Positions 1,263 to 56,132 are shown, counted from the first letter of the stretch. The stretch: 64,000 bases of DNA from Escherichia coli (GCF_036507355.1 NZ_AP027877.1); one strand, 5' to 3'. Notes: generated from the sequence alone by a model not told the origin. Translations and numbers: made by a program.

Positions 1263-2264
1263 TTACTTCGCAGCGACTTTTTCTCGCAGTGCGCGTTTTT
1301 CCTCTGCGCTGAGGAAAGCCATTTCAAGACCATTAATCTGTGCCTGGCGGATTTGCTCGCGGGATAACCCAGCAGCTGGCGCGGCAACGGTATATTCGTG
1401 AATGATATCCACTCCCTGTACGCCGGGATCGTCAGTGTTAATGCTGGCACGAATGCCATGCTCAAGGAACGTTTTCAGCGGATGTGCAGCCAGCTCAGCC
1501 ACGGTGCTGGTCTGAATATTGGAGGTCAGACAGGATTCAATACCAATTTGTTGCTCGGTGAGAAAATCCATCAGCGCCCGATCTTCAATGGCTTTTACGC
1601 CATGTCCAATACGCTCCGCACCCAGTTCACGAATCGCCTGCCAGATGCTTTCCGGCCCGGCAGCTTCGCCTGCATGGACGGTAATATGCCAGCCCGCATC
1701 ACGCGCGCGGTTGAAGTGAGAAAGGAACAGACTTCCCGGGAAACCAAGTTCATCACCGGCTAAATCAAGTGCGGTAATCTGGTCACGGTGGGCTAAAAAG
1801 GCCTCCAGCTCTTGCTGACAGGCGGCTTCGCCGAAGGTCCGGCTCATAATGCCGATAAGCTTCGCCTGCACACCAAAGGTGCGGCAACCTTCACGTACGC
1901 CATCGATCACCGCTTCGACAACACCCGCTACAGGCAGCTGATGTGCCATTGCCATGTAGCCCGGTGAAAAACGCAGCTCGACATAGTGCAGGCCGTTACG
2001 GGCTGCATCTTCAATGTTTTCAAATGCCACGCGGCGGCAAGCATCAAGAGAGGCGAGAACTTTAACGCCCCAGTCAAGTTTGGTCAGAAAGCTCACCAGA
2101 TCGGGTTCGTTGGCAATGACCTGAACGTGGGGAATCAGTGTTTCCAGGGATTGTGCAGGAAGCGAGATATTATACTGGCGGCCAAGTTCAAGAATGGTCT
2201 GGGGACGAATGTTACCATCAAGGTGGCGATGGATATCAGTTAATGGCAGGGTGGTATCAATCAT
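1263..2264 (-). CDS. add: adenosine deaminase
   Basis: 333-aa ORF with the N-terminal metal-binding HxH motif (DIHRHLDG) and overall adenosine deaminase family similarity. Confidence 0.93.
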
Positions 2265-2367
2265 GGTCGCACTCTTTTTCTGGATATAAAAGTGCGCACC
2301 ATTATAAAAACAAAGCAGGGTAAAAATCCACGATTGCGCAACGATTTTTTACGTTGCGCAATTGGGG

Positions 2368-3540
2368 TTAGCGAACAGCGCGGATGGCGTTAATTAATCC
2401 AGCCACACCTTTTTCCAGTTTCGAACGTGGGCAGCCGGCATTGAGACGGACAAAACCACGACCTTCTTCACCGTAGGTATACCCCGGCATGATCGCGACC
2501 TTTTCTTGCTCGATAAGCGCTTTTTGCAACGCGTTGTCGTCAATATTCAATGGACGTAGATCAAGCCAGGCCAGATAAGTGGATTGCGGGATCTGCCAGT
2601 TGAGTTCAGGAAACGCGGCGTTCATTTTATCTGCGATATACGTCAGGTTATCTTTCAGATAGACGCGTAAGGCATCCAGCCACGGCGCGCCTTGCTGATA
2701 GGCGGCGATATGAGCAGTTAACGCCAGTACCGAAGGGGAAGAAAGCCCATCACGTCCTTTCAGTGCCGATAAATAGGCATCGCGACAACTGCTATTTTCT
2801 ATAATCCCGTAAGCACCGGTCAGGGCGGGAATATTGAAACTTTTCGATCCCGACGTCAGCAACGCCCAGTCTCCGCGAGCCACATTACTCCAGGGAATAT
2901 GCGGCTGTTCGCCCCAAACCATATCCATATGGATTTCATCGGAAATAACCCGCACACCATGACGCTCGCACAGGTCAGCCATGATCTCCAGTTCATCGCA
3001 CGTCCACACTTTCCCGGTAGGATTCTGTGGGCTACACAGGAGCATAATTTTACATTCTGGTTTCGCCAACACGGCTTCCAGCTTGCCCATATCGCAAAAC
3101 CAGCCGTCAGCCTGCTTCTCTAAAGCAACGGGCATTACTGTGCGATGATTACCTTCAATGGCCTTGTAAAATGCGTCATAGGCGGGTGTGTGGATCACCA
3201 CGCCTTCACCTGTTTCAGACCACTGACGAATCAGTTCTGAGACCATATAGATAACAGAAGGGCCATACACCACCGATTGAGGATCGATGGCGGTGTAATG
3301 CTGGGTGGAAAACCAGTGGGCAATAGCCGCGAGAAACTCATCGTTCTTCCAGCGGCTGTAGCCAAACACGCCGTGCATCAGGCGCTGATTCAGCGCCTCG
3401 ATAATGCAGGGGGCAGTGGCAAAATCCATGTCTGAAATCGTGAAAGGTAACAGGTCAGCAGTGCCGAAACGGTCAGCGACATAATCCCACTGCGTACACC
3501 ATGTGCCATGACGATCCACGACCTTTGAAAAATCGAACAT
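2368..3540 (-). CDS. malY: PLP-dependent cystathionine beta-lyase / maltose regulon modulator MalY
   Basis: 390-aa ORF recognised as MalY (aminotransferase class I/II fold); directly downstream of malX as in the malXY operon. Confidence 0.92.
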   Translation of the reverse strand: MFDFSKVVDRHGTWCTQWDYVADRFGTADLLPFTISDMDFATAPCIIEALNQRLMHGVFGYSRWKNDEFLAAIAHWFSTQHYTAIDPQSVVYGPSVIYMVSELIRQWSETGEGVVIHTPAYDAFYKAIEGNHRTVMPVALEKQADGWFCDMGKLEAVLAKPECKIMLLCSPQNPTGKVWTCDELEIMADLCERHGVRVISDEIHMDMVWGEQPHIPWSNVARGDWALLTSGSKSFNIPALTGAYGIIENSSCRDAYLSALKGRDGLSSPSVLALTAHIAAYQQGAPWLDALRVYLKDNLTYIADKMNAAFPELNWQIPQSTYLAWLDLRPLNIDDNALQKALIEQEKVAIMPGYTYGEEGRGFVRLNAGCPRSKLEKGVAGLINAIRAVR

Positions 3541-12915: not shown

Positions 12916-12922
12916 AAAATAA

Positions 12923-12950
12923 CGCCGGAGAGAAAAATCTCCGGCGTTTT
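12923..12950 (+). terminator. intrinsic terminator after uidC
   Basis: GC hairpin cgccggaga-gaaaaa-tctccggcg followed by TTTT. Confidence 0.7.
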
Positions 12951-43824: not shown

Positions 43825-46251
43825 TTATATTTTTTCGATCTCGACCAGATTCGTATGCTGCGGGTTTCCCTTCGCCAGTGGTGAAGGGCGCAGAGTGGTT
43901 AGCGTATTCACACAGCCTCCATGGTCGATTTTATCGCCAGACATATTGGCCTCGTGCCAGGCTCCCTGGCCCATAGCGCTAACTCCAGGGAGAATACGTG
44001 GTGTCACTTTGGCTGGTAGCCGAACTTCGCCACGATGGTTATACACCCGCACCATATCGCCGTTGGCAATCCCACGTTTCTGTGCGTCTATAGGGTTGAT
44101 CCACACCTCCTGACGGCAGGCAGCCTTCAGGACATCAATGTTGCCGTAGGTCGAGTGAGTACGGGATTTGTAATGGAAACCAAACAGTTGCAGTGGAAAG
44201 GTACTACGTTCAGGGGAGTCCCAGCCTTCAAAGGTTGAGGCATAAACTGGCAGTGGGCTTATCACTTCATCTTTTTCCAGTTCCCAGGTACGGGCAATTT
44301 CCGCCAGCTTGCTGGAATAAATTTCAATCTTACCGGAAGGTGTTTTAAGTGGATTTGCCTCGGGGTCGTCACGAAATGCTTTGTAGGCGACAAAATGACC
44401 ATTGGGATCTTTACGCTTATAGATACCCATTTTTTTCAGTTCGTCGTAAGACGGTAACGCCGGATCTTTGGCAAGCATTTTGGCGTACAGATGTTGTAAC
44501 CATTGTTCCTGCGTGCGACCTTCAGTGAACTTTTGATAGACGTCAGGTCCAAGACGTTTCGCGACCTCACTCAGGATCCAGTAAATCGGTTTACGTTCGA
44601 ATTTTTCGCTGGTGACTGGCTGGAGGAAAATGAGATATCCCATGTTACCGGCGTAGTCGTTAGGAATAATATCTTCCTGCTCAACGGTCATCAGGTCTGG
44701 CAGCAGAATGTCGGCATATTTTGCCGATGAGGTCATAAAGTTTTCGATGACCACAATCATTTCGCATTTCGATTCGTCCTGCAGAATTTCATGCGTTTTG
44801 TTGATGTCAGAATGCTGATTAACGAGGGTATTTCCCGCGTAATTCCAGATGAACTTAATGGGCACATCCAGTTTATCTTTGCCCCGGACACCGTCGCGGA
44901 TTGCCGTCATTTGTGGGCCATGATCGATAGCATCTGTCCAGCTGAAGCAGGAAATTGACGTTTTGACCGGATTATCCAGCACCGGCAGGCGCTCTATGGT
45001 AATGGTATAGGTCGATTCACGCGCGCCACTATTTCCGCCGCTGATGCCGACATTGCCCGTCAGAATAGGCAACATAGCAATAGCGCGTGCGGTCAGCTCG
45101 CCGTTTGCCTGGCGTTGTGGCCCCCAGCCCTGGCAGATATAAGCGGGTTTTGCTGTGCCAATTTCACGCGCCAGTTTGATGATACGGTCCACCGGGATAC
45201 CGGTAATTTGCGAAGCCCACTGCGGCGTTTTCGCTGTTTTATCGTCACCTTCACCAAGAATATAGGCTTTATAGTGACCATTTTTGGGTGCATCTGCGGG
45301 TAAGGTTTTTTCGTCATAGCCGACGCAGTATTTATCGAGAAAAGGTTGATCAACGAGATTTTCGTTAATCAATACCCAGGCAATACCCGCAACCAGCGCG
45401 GCATCGGTGCCCGGGCGAATAGGAAGCCATTCGTCTTCACGACCGGCAGCCGTATCGGTATATCGCGGATCGATAACAATCATTTTTGCGTTCGATTTTT
45501 CGCGGGCTTTTTCAAGAAGATAAGTGATGCCACCGCCGCTCATGCGGGTTTCTGCCGGGTTGTTACCAAACATCACGACCAGCTTGCTGTTTTCAATATC
45601 CGTGGTGCTGTTGCCATCATTACTGCCGTAGGTGTAGGGCATGGCACAGGAAATTTGCGCAGTGCTGTAGGAGCCATACTGATTGAGTGAACCGCCGTAG
45701 CAGTTCATCAGGCGTTTGACCGCCGAGGCTGATGGCGAAGAGCGGGTCATATTGCCGCCAACAATCCCCGAAGAGTACTGAATATATACAGCCTCATTGC
45801 CATATTGTTCGACGGTTTTTTTCAGGCTACTGGCGATAGTATCCAGGGCTTCATCCCAGCTAATCCGTTCGAATTTGCCTTCACCGCGTTTACCCACGCG
45901 TTTCATTGGGTAATTCAAGCGATCGGGATGATTAATACGCCGGCGGATGGAGCGACCGCGCAAACAGGCGCGTACTTGATGATTGCCATACTCATCGCTG
46001 CCGGTGTTGTCAGTTTCCACCCAGGCCACTTCATTATCTTTAACATGTAGACGAAGTGCACAGCGGCTACCACAGTTGACGGAACAGGCACCCCAGACCA
46101 CTTTTTCGCTGGCCTGTTGTACTGCTGCCGCTGCACTGCGCAGGGTGAACGGCAAAGAAAAACCGCCTGCAGCCAGCGCCAGAGAACCTATCGCGGTAGA
46201 TTTAACGAGTGTTCTGCGGCTGATGCCCACCATTCGTTCATTTTTGGACAT
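43825..46251 (-). CDS. ynfE: DmsA-like molybdopterin oxidoreductase catalytic subunit, Tat-exported (paralogue 1)
   Basis: 808-aa ORF with twin-arginine motif SRRTLVK; tandem paralogue of ynfF. Confidence 0.92.
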   Translation of the reverse strand: MSKNERMVGISRRTLVKSTAIGSLALAAGGFSLPFTLRSAAAAVQQASEKVVWGACSVNCGSRCALRLHVKDNEVAWVETDNTGSDEYGNHQVRACLRGRSIRRRINHPDRLNYPMKRVGKRGEGKFERISWDEALDTIASSLKKTVEQYGNEAVYIQYSSGIVGGNMTRSSPSASAVKRLMNCYGGSLNQYGSYSTAQISCAMPYTYGSNDGNSTTDIENSKLVVMFGNNPAETRMSGGGITYLLEKAREKSNAKMIVIDPRYTDTAAGREDEWLPIRPGTDAALVAGIAWVLINENLVDQPFLDKYCVGYDEKTLPADAPKNGHYKAYILGEGDDKTAKTPQWASQITGIPVDRIIKLAREIGTAKPAYICQGWGPQRQANGELTARAIAMLPILTGNVGISGGNSGARESTYTITIERLPVLDNPVKTSISCFSWTDAIDHGPQMTAIRDGVRGKDKLDVPIKFIWNYAGNTLVNQHSDINKTHEILQDESKCEMIVVIENFMTSSAKYADILLPDLMTVEQEDIIPNDYAGNMGYLIFLQPVTSEKFERKPIYWILSEVAKRLGPDVYQKFTEGRTQEQWLQHLYAKMLAKDPALPSYDELKKMGIYKRKDPNGHFVAYKAFRDDPEANPLKTPSGKIEIYSSKLAEIARTWELEKDEVISPLPVYASTFEGWDSPERSTFPLQLFGFHYKSRTHSTYGNIDVLKAACRQEVWINPIDAQKRGIANGDMVRVYNHRGEVRLPAKVTPRILPGVSAMGQGAWHEANMSGDKIDHGGCVNTLTTLRPSPLAKGNPQHTNLVEIEKI

Positions 46252-46449
46252 AACTCACTCCCTGTTCTTTATCGTTATATAAAAGTTTATATATTGAATA
46301 TTTAGCGCGCTAACAATAGAGGGAGTCTACCCATTTTGGGTTAATAATTATTAATCCATATCAATAGAAGGGTATGAGTAATAAGGTGGGATTATGTTGT
46401 ATGTCCAAATCGCCGGATGTGTCGTATCCGGCGTGTAGTCGATAATGTA

Positions 46450-46755
46450 TTACTGCGGTTCGGCAGGCGCGCCATCCTGGGTAGACTGCGCGGGAGCAGA
46501 GACGTTACCGCTGGTGGTGCGGGTGTAGAGAATTTTATGCGTATCATTAGCGCAATGCCCGACGACCTGGGAATCAGGCTGATCAACCTGGTCATTGGGT
46601 ACAATACTTAACGTGAAGCTGCTTTCGGGTACGCCATTATTGATAATGCGCTGTGATATATCGCTTTGTATGCGCTCACAGGATCCCGGCGCGGCGAGTA
46701 CCGCGGGTGAGGCGAGGGCGAGCAGAAGCGCGGCACAGCAGGTTGAGAGTTTCAT
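46450..46755 (-). CDS. ynfD: DUF1161 small secreted protein YnfD
   Basis: 101 aa from MKLSTCCAALLLALASPAVLAA (signal peptide). Confidence 0.8.
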   Translation of the reverse strand: MKLSTCCAALLLALASPAVLAAPGSCERIQSDISQRIINNGVPESSFTLSIVPNDQVDQPDSQVVGHCANDTHKILYTRTTSGNVSAPAQSTQDGAPAEPQ

Positions 46756-46862
46756 CATAAGCTCCTTACGCGAAGATAACTTCTTTAAGCATAGCATTTA
46801 ACGTGTAAAGTACTGTATTTGCTACTATGATTGAGAATCATCTCTACTCTCTGGTGACTGAT

Positions 46863-47573
46863 GTGAAATACAAATTACTGCCATGCTTACTCGCGATATT
46901 ACTCACAGGATGTGACCGCACAGAGGTAACACTTTCATTTACTCCTGAGATGGCCAGTTTCTCTAATGAATTCGATTTTGATCCGCTGCGTGGTCCGGTA
47001 AAAGATTTCACTCAGACATTAATGGATGAGCAAGGTGAAGTGACGAAACGTGTTTCGGGGACTTTGTCGGAAGAAGGCTGTTTTGATTCACTCGAATTAC
47101 TGGATCTGGAAAATAATACCGTGGTCGCTCTGGTACTGGACGCCAATTATTACCGTGATGCCGAGACGCTGGAGAAGAGAGTACGTTTACAGGGAAAATG
47201 CCAGCTAGCGGAATTACCTTCCGCCGGGGTGAGTTGGGAAACCGATGATAATGGCTTCGTGATTAAAGCCAGCAGCAAACAAATGCAGATGGAATATCGC
47301 TATGATGATCAGGGTTATCCACTGGGTAAAACCACGAAAAGTAACGACAAAACATTATCTGTCAGCGCCACGCCATCAACGGACCCGATCAAAAAATTAG
47401 ATTACACAGCGGTTACTTTACTGAATAATCAACGAGTTGGTAATGTAAAACAGAGCTGTGAATATGACAGTCACGCCAATCCGGTGGACTGTCAGCTGAT
47501 CATTGTTGATGAAGGAGTAAAACCCGCCGTCGAACGGGTTTACACCATCAAAAATACGATCGATTATTATTAA
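46863..47573 (+). CDS. ynfC: UPF0257 lipoprotein YnfC (GTG start)
   Basis: 236 aa beginning (M)KYKLLPCLLAILLTGC with lipobox LTGC; start codon inferred as GTG at 46863. Confidence 0.8.
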   Translation: MKYKLLPCLLAILLTGCDRTEVTLSFTPEMASFSNEFDFDPLRGPVKDFTQTLMDEQGEVTKRVSGTLSEEGCFDSLELLDLENNTVVALVLDANYYRDAETLEKRVRLQGKCQLAELPSAGVSWETDDNGFVIKASSKQMQMEYRYDDQGYPLGKTTKSNDKTLSVSATPSTDPIKKLDYTAVTLLNNQRVGNVKQSCEYDSHANPVDCQLIIVDEGVKPAVERVYTIKNTIDYY

Positions 47574-47575
47574 TG

Positions 47576-48136
47576 CTATTGTGCGGTCGGCTTCAGGAGA
47601 GTCTGACCCGGTGTTTTGTGCTCTGCCAGATACTGATGCTGGAATATACACATGCGAATGGCATTACGATATTGACCATTAATAAAGAACTCGTGCATCA
47701 ATTCACCTTCAACCGAAAAGCCAAGCTTGCGGTAAATGTGAATCGCTTTTTCATTCTCTTTATCAACGATCAGATACAGCTTATAGAGATTGAGAACGGT
47801 GAAGCCATAGTCCATTGCTAATTTGGCGGCACGGGTTGCCAGACCTTTCCCCTGATACTCCGGGGAGATAATTATCTGAAATTCTGCGCGGCGATGAACA
47901 TGGTTAATTTCCACCAGCTCCACCAGACCGGCTTTTTCGCCGTCACATTCCACCACAAAGCGCCGTTCGCTCTGATCGTGAATATGCTTATCATACAGAT
48001 CAGAGAGTTCAACAAAGGCTTCGTAGGGTTCCTCAAACCAGTAACGCATCACACTGGCGTTATTGTCGAGTTGATGTACATAGCGTAAATCTTCACGCTC
48101 CAGCGGGCGTAGCTTAACACTGTGGGCGCTTGGCAT
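47576..48136 (-). CDS. speG: spermidine N1-acetyltransferase (GNAT family), apparently intact
   Basis: 186-aa uninterrupted ORF recognised as SpeG. Confidence 0.92.
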
Positions 48137-48170
48137 AACGTGTCCTTACATTCCTTAAATCAATAACAGG

Positions 48171-48512
48171 TTAGGGGGTAATAACGCGGCCAGTTCGACG
48201 GTCCAGGCAGCGCAAAGTATTGGGCTCCCAGTAGGCATTGATGTTGGCGCTTTGCTCACATTTATCGCGGTTATCAAAAGCGGCGTCGGCTTTATCCCAC
48301 TCTTTTTCAGTGCGTTTATTCACTTTCTGACGCAGATTGCGCGTGTCATTCCATTGCTCTTTTTCCATAGCGGCGTGCTGGCGGCTTTGTGCACTGTCGC
48401 CAGACTCAATCACCAGTTTGTTAGTTTCGGCATGAACAGTTGTGCTCAATGCCAGTGCGCAAGGCAGCAGAAAAGCGAGCAGGCCGATTCGTTTGCTGAG
48501 AGTGATTTTCAT
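48171..48512 (-). CDS. ynfB: UPF0482 secreted protein YnfB
   Basis: 113-aa ORF with signal peptide. Confidence 0.85.
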
Positions 48513-48646
48513 AATTCATTCCCTGTATGAATGATTAAAGGTGATTCTACACCATCCACTGCGAACGCAAAACGTACCAGGAGGGTGTTTATATTGATGA
48601 TATTATGTGGCCCTATAACTATACATGATGTCAATAAGTGACAAAG

Positions 48647-48973
48647 ATGATTAAAACAACGTTACTATTTTTTGCTACTGCGCTGTGTGAAATTATTGGA
48701 TGCTTTCTGCCCTGGTTGTGGTTAAAACGAAACGCCAGTATCTGGCTGTTGCTTCCGGCGGGGATTTCACTGGCGCTGTTTGTCTGGTTGTTAACGTTGC
48801 ATCCTGCGGCGAGTGGGCGTGTTTAGGCGGCTTATGGTGGCGTTTATGTCTGCACGGCGTTGATGTGGCTGCGCGTTGTGGATGGCGTGAAACTGACTCT
48901 TTATGACTGGACGGGTGCGTTGATTGCACTTTGCGGCATGTTGATCATTGTTGCGGGCTGGGGGCGCACGTAG
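48647..48973 (+). pseudogene. ynfA: UPF0060 membrane protein YnfA interrupted by an in-frame amber codon at 48824..48826
   Basis: ORF stops after ...HPAASGRV at TAG (gtt TAG gcg); the same frame then reads [48 protein letters not shown] to a TAG at 48971..48973, giving the expected 108 aa if the internal TAG were a sense codon. Confidence 0.8.
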
Positions 48974-49178
48974 GAACATAAATCCATTTTATCAATAAGA
49001 TACGAGGAAGTGTCAGCTGACAAAAGGTATTCTATTTCATCTTTTGTCAACCATTCACAGCGCAAATATACGCCTTTTTTTGTGATCACTCCGGCTTTTT
49101 TCGATCTTCATACTTGTATGGTAGTAGCTCAGTTGCGTAGATTTCATGCATCACGACAAGCGATGCAAGGAATCGAAT

Positions 49179-50393
49179 ATGAAGATCGTAAAGGCTGAAG
49201 TTTTTGTTACCTGTCCGGGGCGTAATTTCGTCACATTAAAAATCACCACTGAGGACGGTATTACGGGCCTTGGGGATGCCACCCTCAATGGACGTGAGCT
49301 TTCCGTGGCCTCTTATTTGCAGGATCACCTTTGTCCGCAGCTTATTGGTCGCGATGCGCACCGTATCGAAGATATCTGGCAGTTTTTCTATAAAGGTGCT
49401 TACTGGCGTCGCGGTCCGGTTACGATGTCGGCCATTTCAGCGGTTGATATGGCGCTGTGGGATATTAAAGCCAAAGCTGCCAACATGCCGCTTTACCAGT
49501 TACTCGGCGGCGCGTCTCGTGAAGGGGTGATGGTTTATTGCCATACCACCGGTCACAGTATTGATGAAGCTCTGGATGATTATGCCCGTCATCAGGAGCT
49601 GGGATTCAAAGCCATCCGCGTGCAGTGCGGAATCCCTGGTATGAAAACCACCTACGGCATGTCGAAAGGTAAAGGTCTGGCTTATGAACCCGCAACCAAA
49701 GGACAGTGGCCGGAAGAGCAGCTGTGGTCGACGGAGAAATACCTCGATTTCATGCCGAAATTGTTTGACGCGGTACGTAACAAGTTTGGTTTTAATGAAC
49801 ATTTGCTGCATGACATGCACCATCGCTTAACGCCTATTGAAGCGGCGCGCTTTGGTAAAAGCATTGAAGATTATCGCATGTTCTGGATGGAAGACCCGAC
49901 GCCTGCGGAAAACCAGGAATGCTTCCGTCTCATTCGCCAACATACCGTCACACCCATCGCAGTGGGTGAAGTCTTCAACAGCATCTGGGACTGCAAACAA
50001 CTGATTGAAGAGCAACTCATCGATTATATCCGCACCACGCTGACCCATGCAGGCGGAATTACCGGTATGCGCCGGATTGCCGATTTTGCTTCGCTGTATC
50101 AGGTACGTACTGGCTCGCACGGTCCTTCCGATTTGTCACCAGTCTGCATGGCTGCGGCGCTGCACTTTGATCTGTGGGTCCCCAATTTCGGTGTCCAGGA
50201 ATACATGGGTTATTCCGAACAAATGCTCGAAGTCTTCCCGCACAACTGGACTTTCGATAACGGCTATATGCATCCGGGAGACAAACCGGGTCTTGGTATC
50301 GAATTCGATGAAAAGCTGGCGGCGAAATATCCCTATGAACCTGCTTATCTACCAGTCGCACGTCTGGAAGATGGCACGCTGTGGAACTGGTAA
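49179..50393 (+). CDS. rspA: starvation-sensing protein RspA (enolase-superfamily mannonate dehydratase-like)
   Basis: 404 aa from [10 protein letters not shown]; enolase-superfamily fold. Confidence 0.92.
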
Positions 50394-50404
50394 GGAGTAA
50401 GATA

Positions 50405-51424
50405 ATGAAAAGCATATTAATTGAAAAACCGAATCAACTGGCGATTGTCGAACGTGAAATACCCACCCCGTCAGCGGGTGAAGTACGAGTAAAAGTGAAA
50501 CTTGCCGGAATTTGTGGTTCAGATAGCCATATTTATCGTGGGCATAATCCTTTTGCGAAATATCCGCGCGTCATTGGACATGAATTCTTTGGCGTCATTG
50601 ATGCGGTGGGTGAAGGTGTGGAAAGCGCCAGAGTCGGTGAACGTGTTGCTGTCGATCCGGTGGTCAGCTGTGGTCATTGCTATCCGTGCTCTATAGGTAA
50701 GCCGAACGTTTGTACGACACTCGCTGTATTAGGTGTGCACGTTGACGGTGGTTTCAGTGAATATGCTGTGGTTCCGGCAAAAAATGCGTGGAAAATTCCT
50801 GAAGCAGTGGCCGATCAATATGCGGTAATGATCGAACCTTTTACCATTGCGGCTAACGTAACCGGTCATGGTCAACCGACTGAAAATGATACCGTTCTGG
50901 TTTACGGTGCCGGTCCAATCGGCCTGACGATCGTTCAGGTATTAAAAGGCGTCTATAACGTTAAAAATGTGATTGTTGCCGATCGCATTGATGAACGACT
51001 GGAAAAAGCGAAAGAGAGCGGGGCTGACTGGGTGATTAATAACAGCCAGACACCGCTTGGCGAGATTTTCGCTGAAAAAGGCATCAAGCCGACATTAATT
51101 ATTGATGCGGCTTGTCATCCTTCTATCCTGAAAGAGGCCGTAACGCTGGCTTCTCCAGCGGCACGTATTGTATTGATGGGGTTCTCCAGTGAACCGTCTG
51201 AAGTGATTCAGCAAGGGATTACCGGAAAAGAACTCTCTATTTTCTCTTCACGCTTAAATGCAAATAAATTTCCGGTCGTTATCGACTGGTTAAGTAAAGG
51301 GTTAATTAAACCAGAAAAATTAATTAGCCATACGTTTGATGTCCAGCATGTTGCTGATGCCATTAGTTTATTTGAACAGGATCAAAAACATTGCTGCAAA
51401 GTCTTACTCACTTTTTCTGAATAA
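50405..51424 (+). CDS. rspB: zinc-dependent alcohol-dehydrogenase-family protein RspB
   Basis: 339 aa from MKSILIEKPN; zinc-binding GHEFFG and Rossmann GAGPIG motifs. Confidence 0.92.
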   Translation: MKSILIEKPNQLAIVEREIPTPSAGEVRVKVKLAGICGSDSHIYRGHNPFAKYPRVIGHEFFGVIDAVGEGVESARVGERVAVDPVVSCGHCYPCSIGKPNVCTTLAVLGVHVDGGFSEYAVVPAKNAWKIPEAVADQYAVMIEPFTIAANVTGHGQPTENDTVLVYGAGPIGLTIVQVLKGVYNVKNVIVADRIDERLEKAKESGADWVINNSQTPLGEIFAEKGIKPTLIIDAACHPSILKEAVTLASPAARIVLMGFSSEPSEVIQQGITGKELSIFSSRLNANKFPVVIDWLSKGLIKPEKLISHTFDVQHVADAISLFEQDQKHCCKVLLTFSE

Positions 51425-51470
51425 TACTGAGGTGTACTGGCAATAGCGGACACTACCATTTGTTCTTTTT

Positions 51471-52289
51471 TTAAGCAGCCATCTGATGATATTTTTCCCT
51501 GAAGGCTGCCGGGGAGATATTCCCCAGACGAGAGTGACGACGCTGACGATTGTAGAAAATCTCAATGTATTCCCGTATTACTGAGATGGCTTCATCCCGG
51601 TTATTAAAACGATAGTGGCTCAGGCTCTCATTTTTCAGCGTTCCCCAGAAGCTTTCCATCGGAGCGTTGTCGTAACAGTTACCTTTACGCGACATTGATG
51701 TTTTCAGACCAAACTGCTCCTGTATGACCCGGTAATCGTATGCGCAGTACTGTGAACCTCGATCAGAGTGGTGGATTAGCCCGGCAGGTGGGCGCTGTCT
51801 CCTGAGCGCCATAAACAGGGCTTTACCTGTCAGCTCTTTTGTCATGCGCTCTCCCATGGCGTAGCCGACAATTTCGCACGTATAAACATCTTTGATGCCA
51901 GCGAGGTACAACCATCCCTCCTGTGTGGCAACATACGTCAGGTCCGCCACCCAGACCTGATTTGGTGCTGTAGGAGCGAACGTCTGGTTCAGCAGATTTG
52001 GCGCAACTGGCAGATTGTGGTTCGAGTTCGTAGTCGCTCTGAACTTGCGTTTCTGCTTACAGCGTAGCCTTAGCTCCTTACGAAGACGTGCCAGTCGGTC
52101 ACGACCAACGATGATGCCATTCTCTGCCAGCTCCGTCTGGAGCCGCCGGGTTCCATATGTTTCGCGAGTGCGGATATGTGCCACCTTAATCTCCAGTTTT
52201 AGCCGCTCATCACTTTGTTTTCTGTCTGAGGGTTCATGCTGTACCCAGTTGTAATAACCGCTCCTGGATACACCAAATACCTGACACAT
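51471..52289 (-). CDS. IS600 transposase OrfB (DDE integrase domain)
   Basis: 272-aa ORF recognised as IS600 OrfB; DDE-type catalytic core. Confidence 0.88.
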   Translation of the reverse strand: MCQVFGVSRSGYYNWVQHEPSDRKQSDERLKLEIKVAHIRTRETYGTRRLQTELAENGIIVGRDRLARLRKELRLRCKQKRKFRATTNSNHNLPVAPNLLNQTFAPTAPNQVWVADLTYVATQEGWLYLAGIKDVYTCEIVGYAMGERMTKELTGKALFMALRRQRPPAGLIHHSDRGSQYCAYDYRVIQEQFGLKTSMSRKGNCYDNAPMESFWGTLKNESLSHYRFNNRDEAISVIREYIEIFYNRQRRHSRLGNISPAAFREKYHQMAA

Positions 52290-52324
52290 CGCTTCAATGG
52301 GAAATTGTTGTCGCCATTGTTCGA

Positions 52325-52627
52325 TTAACGCGTATTTTTCAGCGACTCCTGTGCAAAATACGCTGTTGCTTTTTTTAATATATCTCGCTCAAGGCGAGCT
52401 TCATTTAACGCCTTACGCAGTTGCAGAATTTCAGATTCCAGTTCAGCCACCGTGCGGGAACCAGGAGTACCGAGCCCTTTTCTGGCGGCGGTAACCCATT
52501 GTCCTAAAGTGCCTTCAGGAAGAGATAATCGGGAAGCGCCTTCACTGATCGAAAGTTGATTTTCAAGAACCGTTCTGACAGCTTCGGCTTTGAACTCTTT
52601 AGAGTAACGTTGGGTTTTTCTGCTCAT
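52325..52627 (-). CDS. IS600 transposase OrfA (HTH)
   Basis: 100-aa ORF MSRKTQRYSKEFKAEAVRTV... recognised as IS600 OrfA; ends at the slippery heptamer. Confidence 0.88.
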   Translation of the reverse strand: MSRKTQRYSKEFKAEAVRTVLENQLSISEGASRLSLPEGTLGQWVTAARKGLGTPGSRTVAELESEILQLRKALNEARLERDILKKATAYFAQESLKNTR

Positions 52628-54386
52628 TATTAGCTCCTTCTGATGCCATTCTATTTCAGGAAGGAGTGTCCGTTAAACTCAGGCTACCTCATACCAATAA
52701 CGGCGAGTAAGTAGTACGCATCTTACCTCTTTTTTAGAGATAACCATTATGTCAATAGAAAAACACGAAAGAAGCACTAAGGATTTGGTGAAAGCAGCAG
52801 TATCGGGATGGCTGGGCACTGCGCTTGAATTTATGGATTTCAAGAGTCATGCGTGTTAACTATTTGATAAATATTAAATTAATTTTTCATTGCTTCGTTA
52901 TGGGGCATGGTTGGGGCAAACTCGCTTAACTGTGTATTTAACAAAGCTACCTGTGCATTATTGTTTTCAGACATCCATTTTCCGTATAGACCCTCCGCAT
53001 CTTGAGAGTGTTGGTGATAACGCCTGGATGGGAAAGAAATATGGACGGCTGAATAAAGATGCCTGGCGTGATGATTCGCGACAGAGATTTAAAGAAGCCT
53101 TTCGGGTGTTGAGGCCGCACGGCGTTCTGATTTTTTAATGGAATGAAACGCAAATACCGGTAAGCCAGATTCTGGCACTGACAGACAGAAAACCTGTTAT
53201 CTGTCAACGAACAGGGAAAAAACGATAAAACCCACTGGATTATTTTTATGAAAGAGGCATCCAGTGAGTAGATTCGTAAGGCTACAGATACGTATATCTG
53301 AATAATTAAATTCAGTTCTGTAAATAAAATTTAATCCTTAACCGGATGGATTTCTGCACCCTCAGAACATCAGGAGGCCGCCCGAAAGGGCGGTAGTGAA
53401 ATGCGAAAGTTCAAAATTATTATTGAAACGGGAATAGCTGGTGGAGATTTTGAGGATGTATTCGAAGTGGACGATGACGCAACACCTGAGGAAATTCATG
53501 ACGGAGCATAAGAAATTTTCTTTAACTACTGCAATTACTCATACCACGAAATAAAAGACGATGAGGAAGAACAAAGTGGCTGATTTTTGTTCAGCTAAAT
53601 ATAACATCAGTTTTGAAGAGCGGGATGAACTATTAATGGACTATGGTGAGTTACGCGGTGGAAGTGCTGCTGATGTCGAATCCTAGCGTGATGACTATGA
53701 AGCGGGAAAAACTCCGGTCGAAGCATATTGTGATGAGTGGGGCGATGAATGAGCGAGATTAATTATCAGGAAGGGCATGAAACGGCGGGGCAAGCAAAAC
53801 CAGTGGCATGGCGATATCGCTACGTGAAAAAAGGCGTTACGGACTTTCAGGGGAAGTAGTGGTCTGGTGACTGGAAATATGTACCGAAAAAAGAGGATTG
53901 TAACGACAGGCCGAACTATCAAATTCAGGCCTTATTCACTGCCTCACCAGTCCCAGTTACATCAGAAGAACTGGTTAAAGCTGTGCACTTTTATGAACAA
54001 CTAAAACGCGAAAATCCACCAACATCCGGCAACTAGATTAATGGATTAACTATGTCGGTTAAACGACCAGCCAACTGAAAAAGCGGAAACCTGATTACAG
54101 GTTGCCAGATAAGGCAATGAGCTACCTGGCGCGGAACGGACTGATAAGTATGGGGAATGTTTTACGATGAACCTTTAGACTAAAGAGTTTGTAACGCTAT
54201 GTAAGTGATTTTTTCTGGTTTAGATATTTATATGTCCGGCCAAATTGAGGTGTGTTTAAATGTAATTGCACATTGATTGTAGGAGGAATAATGAAAAACG
54301 CATTGCAGTTTTTGTTTGTTGCGTTCTGGTTGTTCGCATCATGTATGCCCATCATCTTCACAGCAAGGTGAATCGCCACGGATAAT

Positions 54387-55199
54387 CTAGACACTTCCGA
54401 GCCGTTGATAATACTGGTTTTCATATTCTGTCGGTGACATCTGATCGCTGGAACCATGCCGACGCTTACTGTTATAAAACATTTCGATGTAATCAAAAAT
54501 ATCGCTGCGGGCTTCTTCCCGCGTTCCGTAGATCTTTTTCTTTATCCGTTCGCGTTTCAACAACTGGAAAAAGCTTTCTGCAACCGCATTATCATGGCAG
54601 TTACCGCGACGGCTCATGCTGCCATCCAGGCCGTGTGATTTCAGGAACGACTGCCACTCATGGCTTGTGTACTGACTGCCCTGATCCGAATGAACCAGCA
54701 CCTGTTTTTGGGGATTACGGCGCCATACAGCCATCAGCAGTGCGTTCAGGACAATGTCCTTTGTCATCCGGGATTGCATGGACCAGCCGATAATTTTGCG
54801 TGAGAACAGATCAACAACCACGGCAAGATACAGCCAGCCTTCGTGGGTCCTGATGTAGGTTATGTCCGTTACCCAACGCTTATCCGGAGCATCCGGATTG
54901 AACTGTCGCTGGAGCCTGTTGGGCGACACGATACTGGCCTCGCCTTTACGTGCCCGCGGGCTCCGGTATCCGACCTGAGCCTTTATCCCGACACGTTTCA
55001 TCAGTCGCCAGACTCTGTTCACTCCGCACTGTTGCCCGCTGTCCCGCAGATCCAGATGGATTTTGCGATAACCATAGACGCATCCCGATTCCAGCCAGAA
55101 CTGTTTAATCTGCCCTGTCAGCCTCAGGTCTGCCTGATGGCGTTGTGAATGCGGCTGCTGAAGCCAGGCGTAAAAACCACTGGGATGAACATCCAGCAC
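54387..55199 (-). CDS. IS3-family transposase OrfB
   Basis: 270-aa ORF with DDE integrase core (…HSDQGSQYTS…, …GNCHDNAVAESFF…). Confidence 0.85.
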   Translation of the reverse strand: MLDVHPSGFYAWLQQPHSQRHQADLRLTGQIKQFWLESGCVYGYRKIHLDLRDSGQQCGVNRVWRLMKRVGIKAQVGYRSPRARKGEASIVSPNRLQRQFNPDAPDKRWVTDITYIRTHEGWLYLAVVVDLFSRKIIGWSMQSRMTKDIVLNALLMAVWRRNPQKQVLVHSDQGSQYTSHEWQSFLKSHGLDGSMSRRGNCHDNAVAESFFQLLKRERIKKKIYGTREEARSDIFDYIEMFYNSKRRHGSSDQMSPTEYENQYYQRLGSV

Positions 55200-55255
55200 C
55201 CGACAGAGCAGGCGAACAGGCCAGCAACAGGTGTTGTCACGGATAAAGGCGTACC

Positions 55256-55540
55256 TCAGTCGGACAGCTTTGCGAAGTACGCCGCGGCTTTTTTTAATAT
55301 GTCCCGTTCGTCGGTAACCCGCTTCAGCTCTTTCTGGAGACGGCGGATCTCGGCCTGAGCATCTGACTGTTCTTTATTAGCGGAAGAATCCGGACCGTAC
55401 TTCTTTATCCAGGCGTAAAGGCTGTGGGTGGTGATATCGAGACGTGTTGCAACGCTGGCAACAGAATAACCGCGATCAACAACCTGTTTGACTGCTTCAA
55501 TTTTAAACTCTTCGGGATAACGCTTACCGCTCATGGGCAC
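55256..55540 (-). CDS. IS3-family transposase OrfA
   Basis: 94-aa HTH ORF ending at the slippery heptamer. Confidence 0.85.
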   Translation of the reverse strand: MPMSGKRYPEEFKIEAVKQVVDRGYSVASVATRLDITTHSLYAWIKKYGPDSSANKEQSDAQAEIRRLQKELKRVTDERDILKKAAAYFAKLSD

Positions 55541-55760
55541 CTCTCTTTAAGCCATCTTAAATGACTCTGAGGTGTCTGTTAAACCCGTGGCGATTCATAA
55601 TTGATCATGGGTTGTCAGTTAAACTCGTGGCGATTTAAATAGACTAATTGGGAGTGCGTCCATTACTTATATCTTGTAATGTTAACTATCAGAAATTCTT
55701 GTAATGTTAACTATCAGAAATGATACAAAGATAATATGTCTTTAAAGAAAAGGCTGATGG

Positions 55761-55785
55761 CGAAAAGTGGCCCGATGAGGGCCAC
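55761..55785 (-). terminator. intrinsic terminator of flxA
   Basis: On the minus strand: hairpin GTGGCCC-TCATC-GGGCCAC followed by TTTTC. Confidence 0.7.
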
Positions 55786-55799
55786 AATACGGCTGTCAC

Positions 55800-56132
55800 T
55801 TAGACGTAAATATCAATGGTGCCAGCGGTATTTGTATCGTCTTTTTTCTCTTCTTTTTTATCAGGCTGAACTGTCGCGTCTTCATTCTTTTTCTCTGCCT
55901 GCTGCCTTAACAACTGCTCCAGTTGAGCCCAGAGGCTTTCAATTTGCTTCTGTACCAATGCAGCCATTTCTTTTTTCTGCTGTGTCGTCATCCCCTCTTC
56001 CGATGAGATTTTCCCAAGCTTTTCAGTCAGCACCTGAATTTGTCTTGTGATTTTGGCTATTTCTGATGTTCCTTCCGGGGCGGAGTTGTTTGAAATAACG
56101 GTTGAGGTATTTCCCTGAATTGTGACAGACAT
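55800..56132 (-). CDS. flxA: FliA-regulated prophage protein FlxA
   Basis: 110-aa ORF recognised as FlxA; preceded by a sigma28-type promoter and a GGAG ribosome-binding site. Confidence 0.8.
   Translation of the reverse strand: MSVTIQGNTSTVISNNSAPEGTSEIAKITRQIQVLTEKLGKISSEEGMTTQQKKEMAALVQKQIESLWAQLEQLLRQQAEKKNEDATVQPDKKEEKKDDTNTAGTIDIYV

What the first reader, a model, noticed from the sequence alone, without database searches (positions are those of the whole stretch)
51425..52685. IS600 inserted 3 bp downstream of rspB with intact TAC target-site duplication
A complete IS600 (terminal inverted repeats, orfA/orfB, A7 frameshift site) sits where K-12 has the Qin prophage integrase end, by my recollection. 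The intact duplication indicates a simple insertion. It marks the chromosome/prophage boundary and is a potential recombination substrate.
Basis: partly seen in the sequence, partly recalled or inferred. Interest (0 to 1): 0.45.

Follow-up and report, generated by a model that had tools for sequence, protein, structure and literature searches.

The report
Ordinary IS600 insertion just after rspB
A complete copy of the well-known jumping gene IS600 sits in the short spacer just after the rspB gene of an E. coli chromosome, with the usual three-base duplication (TAC); it is an ordinary insertion that breaks no intact gene.

Summary
The finding is real and ordinary. Window 51428-52691 (1264 bp, genes on the minus strand) is a complete IS600. 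It matches copies that RefSeq names "IS3-like element IS600" at 99.9% over its full length. It has imperfect terminal inverted repeats (TG...CA ends), orfA and orfB, an A7 slippery site with a downstream hairpin, and a DD(35)E transposase.

The element starts 3 bp after the rspB stop codon and is flanked by TAC (51425-51427 and 52692-52694). About 4,844 E. coli genomes, including K-12, have the uninterrupted site with a single TAC. This shows a simple insertion.

Two corrections apply. Second, the IS is not where K-12 has the Qin integrase end. It lies in the rspB-ynfP spacer, 150 bp outside the prophage boundary (window 52842), and the last 110 bp of intQ survive to its right.

None of 5,426 complete E. 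coli genomes shares this exact insertion, but one draft assembly does. The window holds no second IS600 copy. Novelty: already known. Interest: low.

The parts
51425..51427 (.). Left copy of the 3-bp target-site duplication, TAC, directly after the rspB stop codon (51422-51424)
   Evidence: Sequence. There is a single TAC in the empty site of L003 and of K-12.
51428..52691 (-). Complete IS600, 1264 bp. The transposase genes read on the minus strand and so converge on rspB.
   Evidence: 99.9% identity over the full length to RefSeq-named IS600 copies. One base differs from the S. sonnei 53G plasmid copy.
51428..51454 (.). Terminal inverted repeat at the orfB-distal end of the element (IRR in the element's own orientation)
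   Evidence: Inverted-repeat pair I1, 27 nt, 70% complementary. Alignment of the two ends gives 19/27 matches and both start TGAGGT.
52665..52691 (.). Terminal inverted repeat at the orfA-proximal end (IRL in the element's own orientation)
52648..52676 (-). Promoter-like site (TTAACG, 17-nt spacer, TAGAAT) in and just inside IRL, upstream of orfA. It is a consensus match only.
   Evidence: 9 of 12 matches, and no more sites than expected in shuffles. Its placement fits the weak IRL promoter typical of IS3-family elements (from general knowledge; inference).
52325..52627 (-). orfA, 100 aa, helix-turn-helix DNA-binding protein
   Evidence: Pfam HTH_Tnp_1, E = 1.5e-20. ORF list.
52370..52376 (-). 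Slippery heptamer A AAA AAA (followed by G at 52369), the site of the programmed -1 frameshift that fuses OrfA to OrfB
   Evidence: Frame check. A -1 shift at this site gives a 385-aa product that covers positions 1-369 of the 369-position IS3 transposase model. RefSeq annotates the same gene in other copies as 'programmed frameshift', 1157 nt joined.
52330..52363 (-). Hairpin 6 nt downstream of the slippery site, the probable frameshift stimulator
   Evidence: Inverted repeat I9, 12-nt arms, 92% complementary. It appears in the minimum-free-energy fold at -14 kcal/mol, but z = -1.16 against shuffles, so the fold is not exceptional on its own.
51471..52289 (-). orfB, 272 aa counted from its first ATG (the reading frame continues upstream to the slippery site): the DDE catalytic domain
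   Evidence: Pfam rve (E = 3.1e-26), rve_3, rve_2 and HTH_21. D229, D289 and E325 of the fusion protein are spaced 59 and 35 residues apart.
51798..51798 (-). The only base that differs from the common IS600 sequence (T here, G elsewhere), giving S277R in OrfAB, 12 residues before the second catalytic Asp
   Evidence: An OrfB with this exact sequence is on 14 public contigs with at least 4 other flanking sequences.
52692..52694 (.). Right copy of the target-site duplication, TAC
   Evidence: Sequence. Maps to the same K-12 bases as the left copy.
50405..51424 (+). Context: rspB (Zn-dependent oxidoreductase), intact
   Evidence: ORF, RefSeq naming of the homologous locus, and the exact protein named as E. 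coli.
52749..52859 (+). Context: ynfP, the 5' fragment of ydfJ left when the Qin-type prophage integrated. The prophage edge is at 52842.
   Evidence: K-12 annotation and coordinate mapping.

Best explanation
This is one complete, apparently functional copy of the insertion sequence IS600 (IS3 family). It transposed into the 57-bp spacer between rspB and the ydfJ 5' fragment (ynfP) of an E. coli chromosome. Shown here: the element's identity, its boundaries, its intact coding capacity, the 3-bp duplication and the empty site. Inferred from what is established for the IS3 family (IS911, IS3, IS2): OrfA is made by normal translation. The OrfAB transposase is made by a -1 ribosomal frameshift on A AAA AAA, helped by the downstream hairpin. 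OrfAB excises the element as a circle through a figure-of-eight intermediate, and the circle integrates at staggered cuts 3 bp apart. Repair of those cuts produces the TAC duplication. The insertion breaks no intact gene, because ydfJ was already split by the Qin-type prophage 150 bp further on, so it is probably near-neutral. At most it uncouples ynfP from any rspAB read-through transcription. It is a lineage marker, present in the source genome and in one draft assembly and absent from 5,426 complete E. coli genomes.
For: IS600 identity at 99.9% over 1264 bp, with RefSeq naming. Four comparison copies have the same 1264-bp length and each carries its own 3-bp duplication: GTA, TTT, CAG, AAC. 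Inverted repeats. HTH_Tnp_1 and rve domains. The fused 385-aa product scores 415.9 bits against NF033516 (cutoff 160) over the whole model. DD(35)E spacing is intact. The empty site with a single TAC occurs in about 4,844 genomes and in K-12. Both flanks are collinear with K-12. The same junction is present in draft contig L006, which ends 79 bp into the IS. The R277 OrfB allele occurs at several other sites.
Against: Nothing contradicts it. Three caveats apply. No ISfinder reference was available, so the name rests on RefSeq annotation and on identity to Shigella sonnei and E. coli copies. Frameshifting, transposase activity and the effect of S277R were not measured. The hairpin's folding energy is not exceptional against shuffles (z = -1.16).
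Confidence: 0.96

Rival explanations
1. The copy is a dead relic: the S277R change near the catalytic centre, or another defect, has inactivated the transposase, so the element can no longer move.
For: One non-synonymous difference from the common IS600 sequence lies 12 residues before the second catalytic Asp. The exact fused 385-aa protein is not on record.
Against: Both reading frames, the slippery site, both ends and the DDE triad are intact. An OrfB with exactly this sequence is on 14 contigs next to at least four other flanking sequences, which implies that elements carrying R277 have inserted at several sites. The missing fused protein is expected where gene callers do not join frameshifted genes.
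Confidence: 0.1
2. The IS is a rearrangement joint. Recombination between two IS600 copies, or an IS600-mediated deletion, joined rspB to the prophage end, and this event removed the Qin integrase region.
For: K-12 1646926-1652598 (most of intQ and the dic region) is missing from the window and is replaced by other DNA.
Against: Both flanks of the IS are collinear with K-12 and share the same three K-12 bases as a direct duplication. The break in K-12 homology is at 52988/52989, 297 bp to the right of the IS. ETEC strains have the same rspB-ynfP-Qin end-methyltransferase arrangement without IS600 (H81-H83).
Confidence: 0.02
3. The element is another member of the IS3 family (for example IS629/IS1203, IS911 or IS3) that was mistaken for IS600.
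For: IS3-family elements share their architecture.
Against: 99.9% nucleotide identity over the full length to loci that RefSeq specifically names IS600, including Shigella sonnei 53G. The other IS3-family element in the window (54369-55597) shows no nucleotide similarity to it at E <= 1e-3.
Confidence: 0.01

Closest known systems
IS600 of Shigella sonnei and E. coli (IS3 family; from my own knowledge, first described by Matsutani and colleagues in 1987 as a 1264-bp element that makes 3-bp duplications)
   Same: Length 1264 bp. 1263 of 1264 bases are identical to the S. sonnei 53G plasmid copy. Same ends, same orfA/orfB, same A7 frameshift site and same 3-bp duplication size.
   Different: One base (51798), giving S277R. 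The insertion site after rspB was not seen in any of 5,426 complete E. coli genomes.
IS911, IS3 and IS2, the experimentally studied IS3-family elements that serve as the mechanistic model
   Same: Two overlapping frames, a -1 frameshift on an A-rich heptamer with a downstream structure, a DDE transposase, TG...CA ends and short duplications. Copy-out-paste-in transposition through a circle is assumed by homology. PMC3219604 summarises the figure-of-eight and minicircle pathway for the family.
   Different: These are different elements at the nucleotide level. No experiment on IS600 itself was consulted or performed here.
The rspB-ynfP-intQ junction of the Qin cryptic prophage in E. coli K-12 MG1655
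   Same: Same gene order, and 98.7-99.7% identity on both sides of the IS. The prophage is integrated in ydfJ at the same point.
   Different: K-12 has no IS600 there. K-12 keeps intQ, IS2E and the dicA/B/C-dicF region, which in the window are replaced by about 1.4 kb of other prophage DNA plus a second IS3-family element.
IS600 copies near rspB in the E. coli strains UTAK-23, 7_26_9A and 95_0274 (veal and bovine sources)
   Same: The same element in the same orientation, within about 1.4 kb of rspB.
   Different: They lie at different positions (in the ydfJ' fragment 109 bp further right, and inside the integrase gene) and have different duplications (GTA, TTT), so they are independent events.

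Membership tests
IS600 (the specific element) | Near-identity in nucleotide sequence over the full length to reference IS600 | tested here: met
   99.9% over 1264/1264 bp to RefSeq-named IS600 loci in E. coli and S. sonnei. ISfinder itself was not available.
IS600 (the specific element) | Length of 1264 bp between the terminal repeats | tested here: met
   51428-52691 is 1264 bp, and four independent copies have the same length. The published length is recalled from memory.
IS600 (the specific element) | 3-bp direct target duplication | tested here: met
   TAC on both sides, with a single TAC in empty sites. Four other copies carry GTA, TTT, CAG and AAC.
IS3 family | Imperfect terminal inverted repeats ending 5'-TG...CA-3' | tested here: met
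   27-nt arms with 19/27 matches, TGAGGT...ACCTCA
IS3 family | Two consecutive, partly overlapping reading frames (orfA in frame 0, orfB in frame -1) with a slippery heptamer in the overlap | tested here: met
   orfA 52627-52325, with the orfB frame open from the A7 site to 51471. A AAA AAA is in the correct register.
IS3 family | The OrfAB fusion matches the curated IS3 transposase model above its cutoff | tested here: met
   NF033516: 415.9 bits against a cutoff of 160, covering model positions 1-369 of 369
IS3 family | DDE catalytic triad in an RNase H-like (rve) domain with about 35 residues between the second D and E | tested here: met
   Pfam rve, E = 3.1e-26. D229, D289 and E325, with spacings of 59 and 35.
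IS3 family | Programmed -1 ribosomal frameshifting actually occurs and yields an active transposase | not testable with these tools
   Sequence features only. RefSeq labels the homologous gene 'programmed frameshift'. The hairpin is predicted but not exceptional.
IS3 family | Transposition through a circular intermediate (copy-out-paste-in) | not testable with these tools
   Inferred from family members studied experimentally (PMC3219604 abstract, listed).

The most novel reading that the evidence does not exclude
The rspB-proximal edge of Qin-type prophages might be a preferred landing zone for IS600: there are four independent insertions within about 1.4 kb in different lineages. The copy here, which converges on rspB, might also alter rspAB 3'-end processing or expression of the small ynfP gene. 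The evidence does not favour a hotspot. With 9,584 IS600 places in the genome collection, about 2.7 insertions are expected by chance in any 1.4-kb stretch of a 5-Mb genome, and 3 were seen (my arithmetic).
Probability: 0.05. Interest if true: 0.15.

Novelty: already known. Interest (0 to 1): 0.06.

Why it matters
It matters little beyond bookkeeping. IS600 is a long-known element that is common in Shigella and in many E. coli: 3,486 of 5,426 complete genomes have a match to it. This copy is a textbook simple insertion in a spacer next to an already broken gene. Its practical value is as a strain or lineage marker, since the exact junction is absent from 5,426 complete genomes and present in one draft assembly. 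It is also a likely contig break point in short-read assemblies: L006 ends inside it. The corrected coordinates, and the correction about K-12, prevent the insertion from being annotated as part of the prophage or of its integrase.

Tried and rejected
(1) Searched for the same insertion in other genomes with a query spanning both junctions. Three candidates covered at least 80% of the query, but all proved to be IS600 at other positions.
(2) Considered that the window might be Shigella, because IS600 and a second IS3-family element are present. I rejected this. The exact RspB protein is recorded only under E. coli. Window 1-51427 is collinear with K-12, apart from one small indel near 12921-12949, and has no IS.
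(3) Considered that IS600 caused the loss of the K-12 intQ-dic region. I rejected this because the homology break lies 297 bp from the IS and the same arrangement exists without IS600.
(4) My first guess was that the second IS at about 54.4-55.6 kb is IS911, judged from its transposase sequence. This was not verified: its ends (TGAATCGCCACGG) are not the IS911 ends I recall, and RefSeq calls its relatives only 'IS3 family transposase'. I leave it unnamed.
(5) An Rfam scan of 51000-56000 for a catalogued frameshift element or small RNA gave only one chance-level match, E = 0.81.
(6) A literature search for IS600 together with rspB found 0 papers. PMC9397093 did not state the size or duplication length of IS600.
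(7) The exact fused OrfAB protein is not on record, so I used the OrfB part instead.
(8) The promoter and terminator scan gave nothing above shuffle expectation.

Full report
**1. The observation**

Reading 51200-52900 shows that the rspB reading frame (50405-51424) ends with TAA at 51422-51424. TAC follows at 51425-51427, and then comes TGAGGTGTACTGGC.... The repeat finder reports one long inverted pair, 51428-51454 against 52665-52691 (27 nt, 70% complementary). The element therefore spans 51428-52691, which is 1264 bp, and is followed by TAC at 52692-52694.

Those three bases are GCT, so its right-hand coordinates are 9 bp short. A TAC inside the terminal repeat (52685-52687) may explain the slip. 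Everything else in its description holds.

**2. Identity**

The 1264 bp match copies that RefSeq annotates as "IS3-like element IS600 family transposase" at 99.9% over their full length. These copies are on E. coli chromosomes and on E. coli and Shigella sonnei plasmids.

I compared four copies base by base: two E. coli chromosomal copies near rspB, one from strain EJN001, and one from the S. sonnei 53G plasmid. All four are exactly 1264 bp and differ from the window copy at one or two positions. Each is flanked by its own 3-bp direct repeat: GTA, TTT, AAC and CAG. That confirms independently both the boundaries and the 3-bp duplication size.

No ISfinder copy was available. The name therefore rests on RefSeq naming and on identity to Shigella sonnei copies. 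My recollection that IS600 was described as a 1264-bp element with 3-bp duplications agrees with this.

**3. Anatomy**

All of these features lie on the minus strand.

- **orfA** (52627-52325, 100 aa) carries the HTH_Tnp_1 domain (E = 1.5e-20).
- **orfB** (open to 51471) carries HTH_21 and the rve, rve_2 and rve_3 integrase-core domains.
- **Slippery site.** The A7 run at 52376-52370 sits in the register TT[A AAA AAA]G relative to orfA. A -1 shift there yields a 385-aa protein. That protein covers positions 1-369 of the 369-position curated IS3 transposase model, at 415.9 bits against a cutoff of 160. Its length agrees with the 1157-nt joined gene that RefSeq marks "programmed frameshift" in other copies.
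- **Catalytic triad.** The residues are D229, D289 and E325, spaced 59 and 35 residues apart.
- **Hairpin.** A 12-bp-arm hairpin (52363-52330) starts 6 nt after the slippery run. It is in the right place to stimulate frameshifting, but its energy is not unusual against shuffles (z = -1.16).
- **Promoter-like site.** One lies in the orfA-proximal end (52676-52648). It is no more than a consensus match.
- Rfam has no match in the region.

**4. Simple insertion**

A query built from the flanks, with the IS and one TAC removed, is found uninterrupted in about 4,844 of 5,426 complete E. coli genomes. The empty site reads CTGAATAA-TAC-CAATAACGG, with one TAC.

Against K-12 MG1655, window 44320-51427 aligns to 1660000-1652893 and window 52691-52988 aligns to 1652896-1652599. 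Both TAC copies therefore correspond to the same K-12 bases, 1652893-1652895. A 3-bp flank match alone has about a 1-in-64 chance of arising at random. The empty-site comparison is what makes the case decisive.

**5.

In K-12 the Qin feature ends at 1652745 and intQ at 1652708. ynfP, the 5' fragment of ydfJ left by prophage integration, lies at 1652728-1652838, and rspB begins at 1652896.

Mapped to the window, the prophage edge is at 52842, ynfP is at 52749-52859, and the last 110 bp of intQ are at 52879-52988. The IS therefore lies in the 57-bp rspB-ynfP spacer, 150 bp outside the prophage, and not at the integrase end.

K-12 homology stops at 52988 and resumes at 55587 (K-12 1646925, the flxA side, 99.5%). 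The intervening DNA is other lambdoid prophage sequence plus a second IS3-family element. ETEC strains carry the same rspB-ynfP-Qin end-methyltransferase arrangement without IS600. IS600 therefore did not cause that difference.

The other 51 kb of the window is collinear with K-12 at 98.4-98.9% and has no IS. The exact RspB protein is recorded only under E. coli, on a 4.64-Mb chromosome. The host is thus an ordinary E. coli and not an IS-laden Shigella.

**6. Distribution**

No complete E. coli genome in the collection has this exact insertion. Three have IS600 nearby but at other positions: 109 bp further right in the ydfJ' fragment, and twice inside the integrase gene. With 9,584 IS600 places in the collection, about 2.7 insertions are expected by chance in a given 1.4-kb stretch of a 5-Mb genome. 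Three observed insertions do not indicate a hotspot; this estimate is my own arithmetic.

One draft assembly, GCA_905398585.1, has a contig that runs through rspB-TAA-TAC and ends 79 bp into IS600. This is the same junction, and it illustrates how the element breaks short-read assemblies.

**7. State of the copy**

The single base difference (51798, T instead of G) gives S277R, 12 residues before the second catalytic Asp. An OrfB of exactly this sequence is found on 14 public contigs next to at least four other flanking sequences. The R277 allele has therefore spread to several sites and is unlikely to be a dead one-off. This is an inference, because activity was not measured.

**8. Mechanism**

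- **Shown:** an intact element, its ends, its coding capacity, the duplication and the empty site.
- **Inferred from the studied IS3-family elements** (IS911, IS3, IS2; PMC3219604 summarises the figure-of-eight and minicircle pathway). OrfA comes from normal translation. OrfAB comes from -1 frameshifting on A AAA AAA. The element is excised as a circle. The circle integrates at cuts staggered by 3 bp, and repair of those cuts gives the TAC repeat.
- **Consequence.** No intact gene is broken, because ydfJ was already split by the prophage. The IS genes converge on rspB, so rspAB read-through would be antisense to the transposase genes, and ynfP is cut off from any rspAB read-through transcription. 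The insertion is probably near-neutral.

**9. Verdict**

This is a known element behaving in the known way, so the finding is already known and of low interest.

Noticed in passing
window 52989-54368: Prophage DNA absent from K-12 Qin. Other E. coli annotate it as class I SAM-dependent methyltransferase, DUF977 and DUF7167. Here it replaces K-12 1646926-1652598 (dicA/B/C, dicF, ydfE, IS2E and most of intQ). The resident Qin-type prophage therefore lacks an intact integrase and the dic region.
   Followed up: partly
window 54369-55597: A second IS3-family element, 1229 bp by its inverted repeats (TGAATCGCCACGG...), with genes on the minus strand. It is 98.6% identical to 'IS3 family transposase' copies on Klebsiella and Enterobacter plasmids. 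Its flanks are AGG and TAA, so it has no target duplication, and it sits exactly where K-12 homology resumes, so it may be a rearrangement joint. I could not confirm my first guess that it is IS911.
   Followed up: partly
window 55614-55637: 16 bp to the right of the second IS lies a sequence (GTCAGTTAAACTCGTGGCGATTTA) that matches that IS's own terminal 24 nt at 21 of 24 positions, in the same orientation. K-12 has it too, without the IS. This suggests insertion next to an end-like sequence, as reported for some IS3-family elements (the comparison with the family is from memory).
   Followed up: no
L001 3409-4672; L002 3730-4993; L009 about 1834-3097: Three E. coli strains (one from veal, two bovine) carry independent IS600 insertions within about 1.4 kb of rspB: one in the ydfJ' fragment and two in the prophage integrase. 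All are in the same orientation as the window copy.
   Followed up: yes
L006 5021-5102: A contig of draft assembly GCA_905398585.1 ends 79 bp into IS600 at the identical rspB-TAA-TAC junction. The same insertion therefore exists in a second assembly, and it broke that assembly.
   Followed up: yes
L010 2599-3862; L011 and L014 1-1261: Among the contigs carrying the R277 OrfB allele, one full copy (L010) has flanks CAA and ACA, with no perfect 3-bp duplication. Two copies measure 1261 bp and have a 99-aa OrfA, which points to a 3-bp deletion variant.
   Followed up: no
window about 12921-12949: This is the only break in collinearity with K-12 left of the IS. About 125 bp of the K-12 ydgA-uidC spacer (1691399-1691552) are missing or rearranged. 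The spot may be a repetitive extragenic element, but I did not examine it.
   Followed up: no
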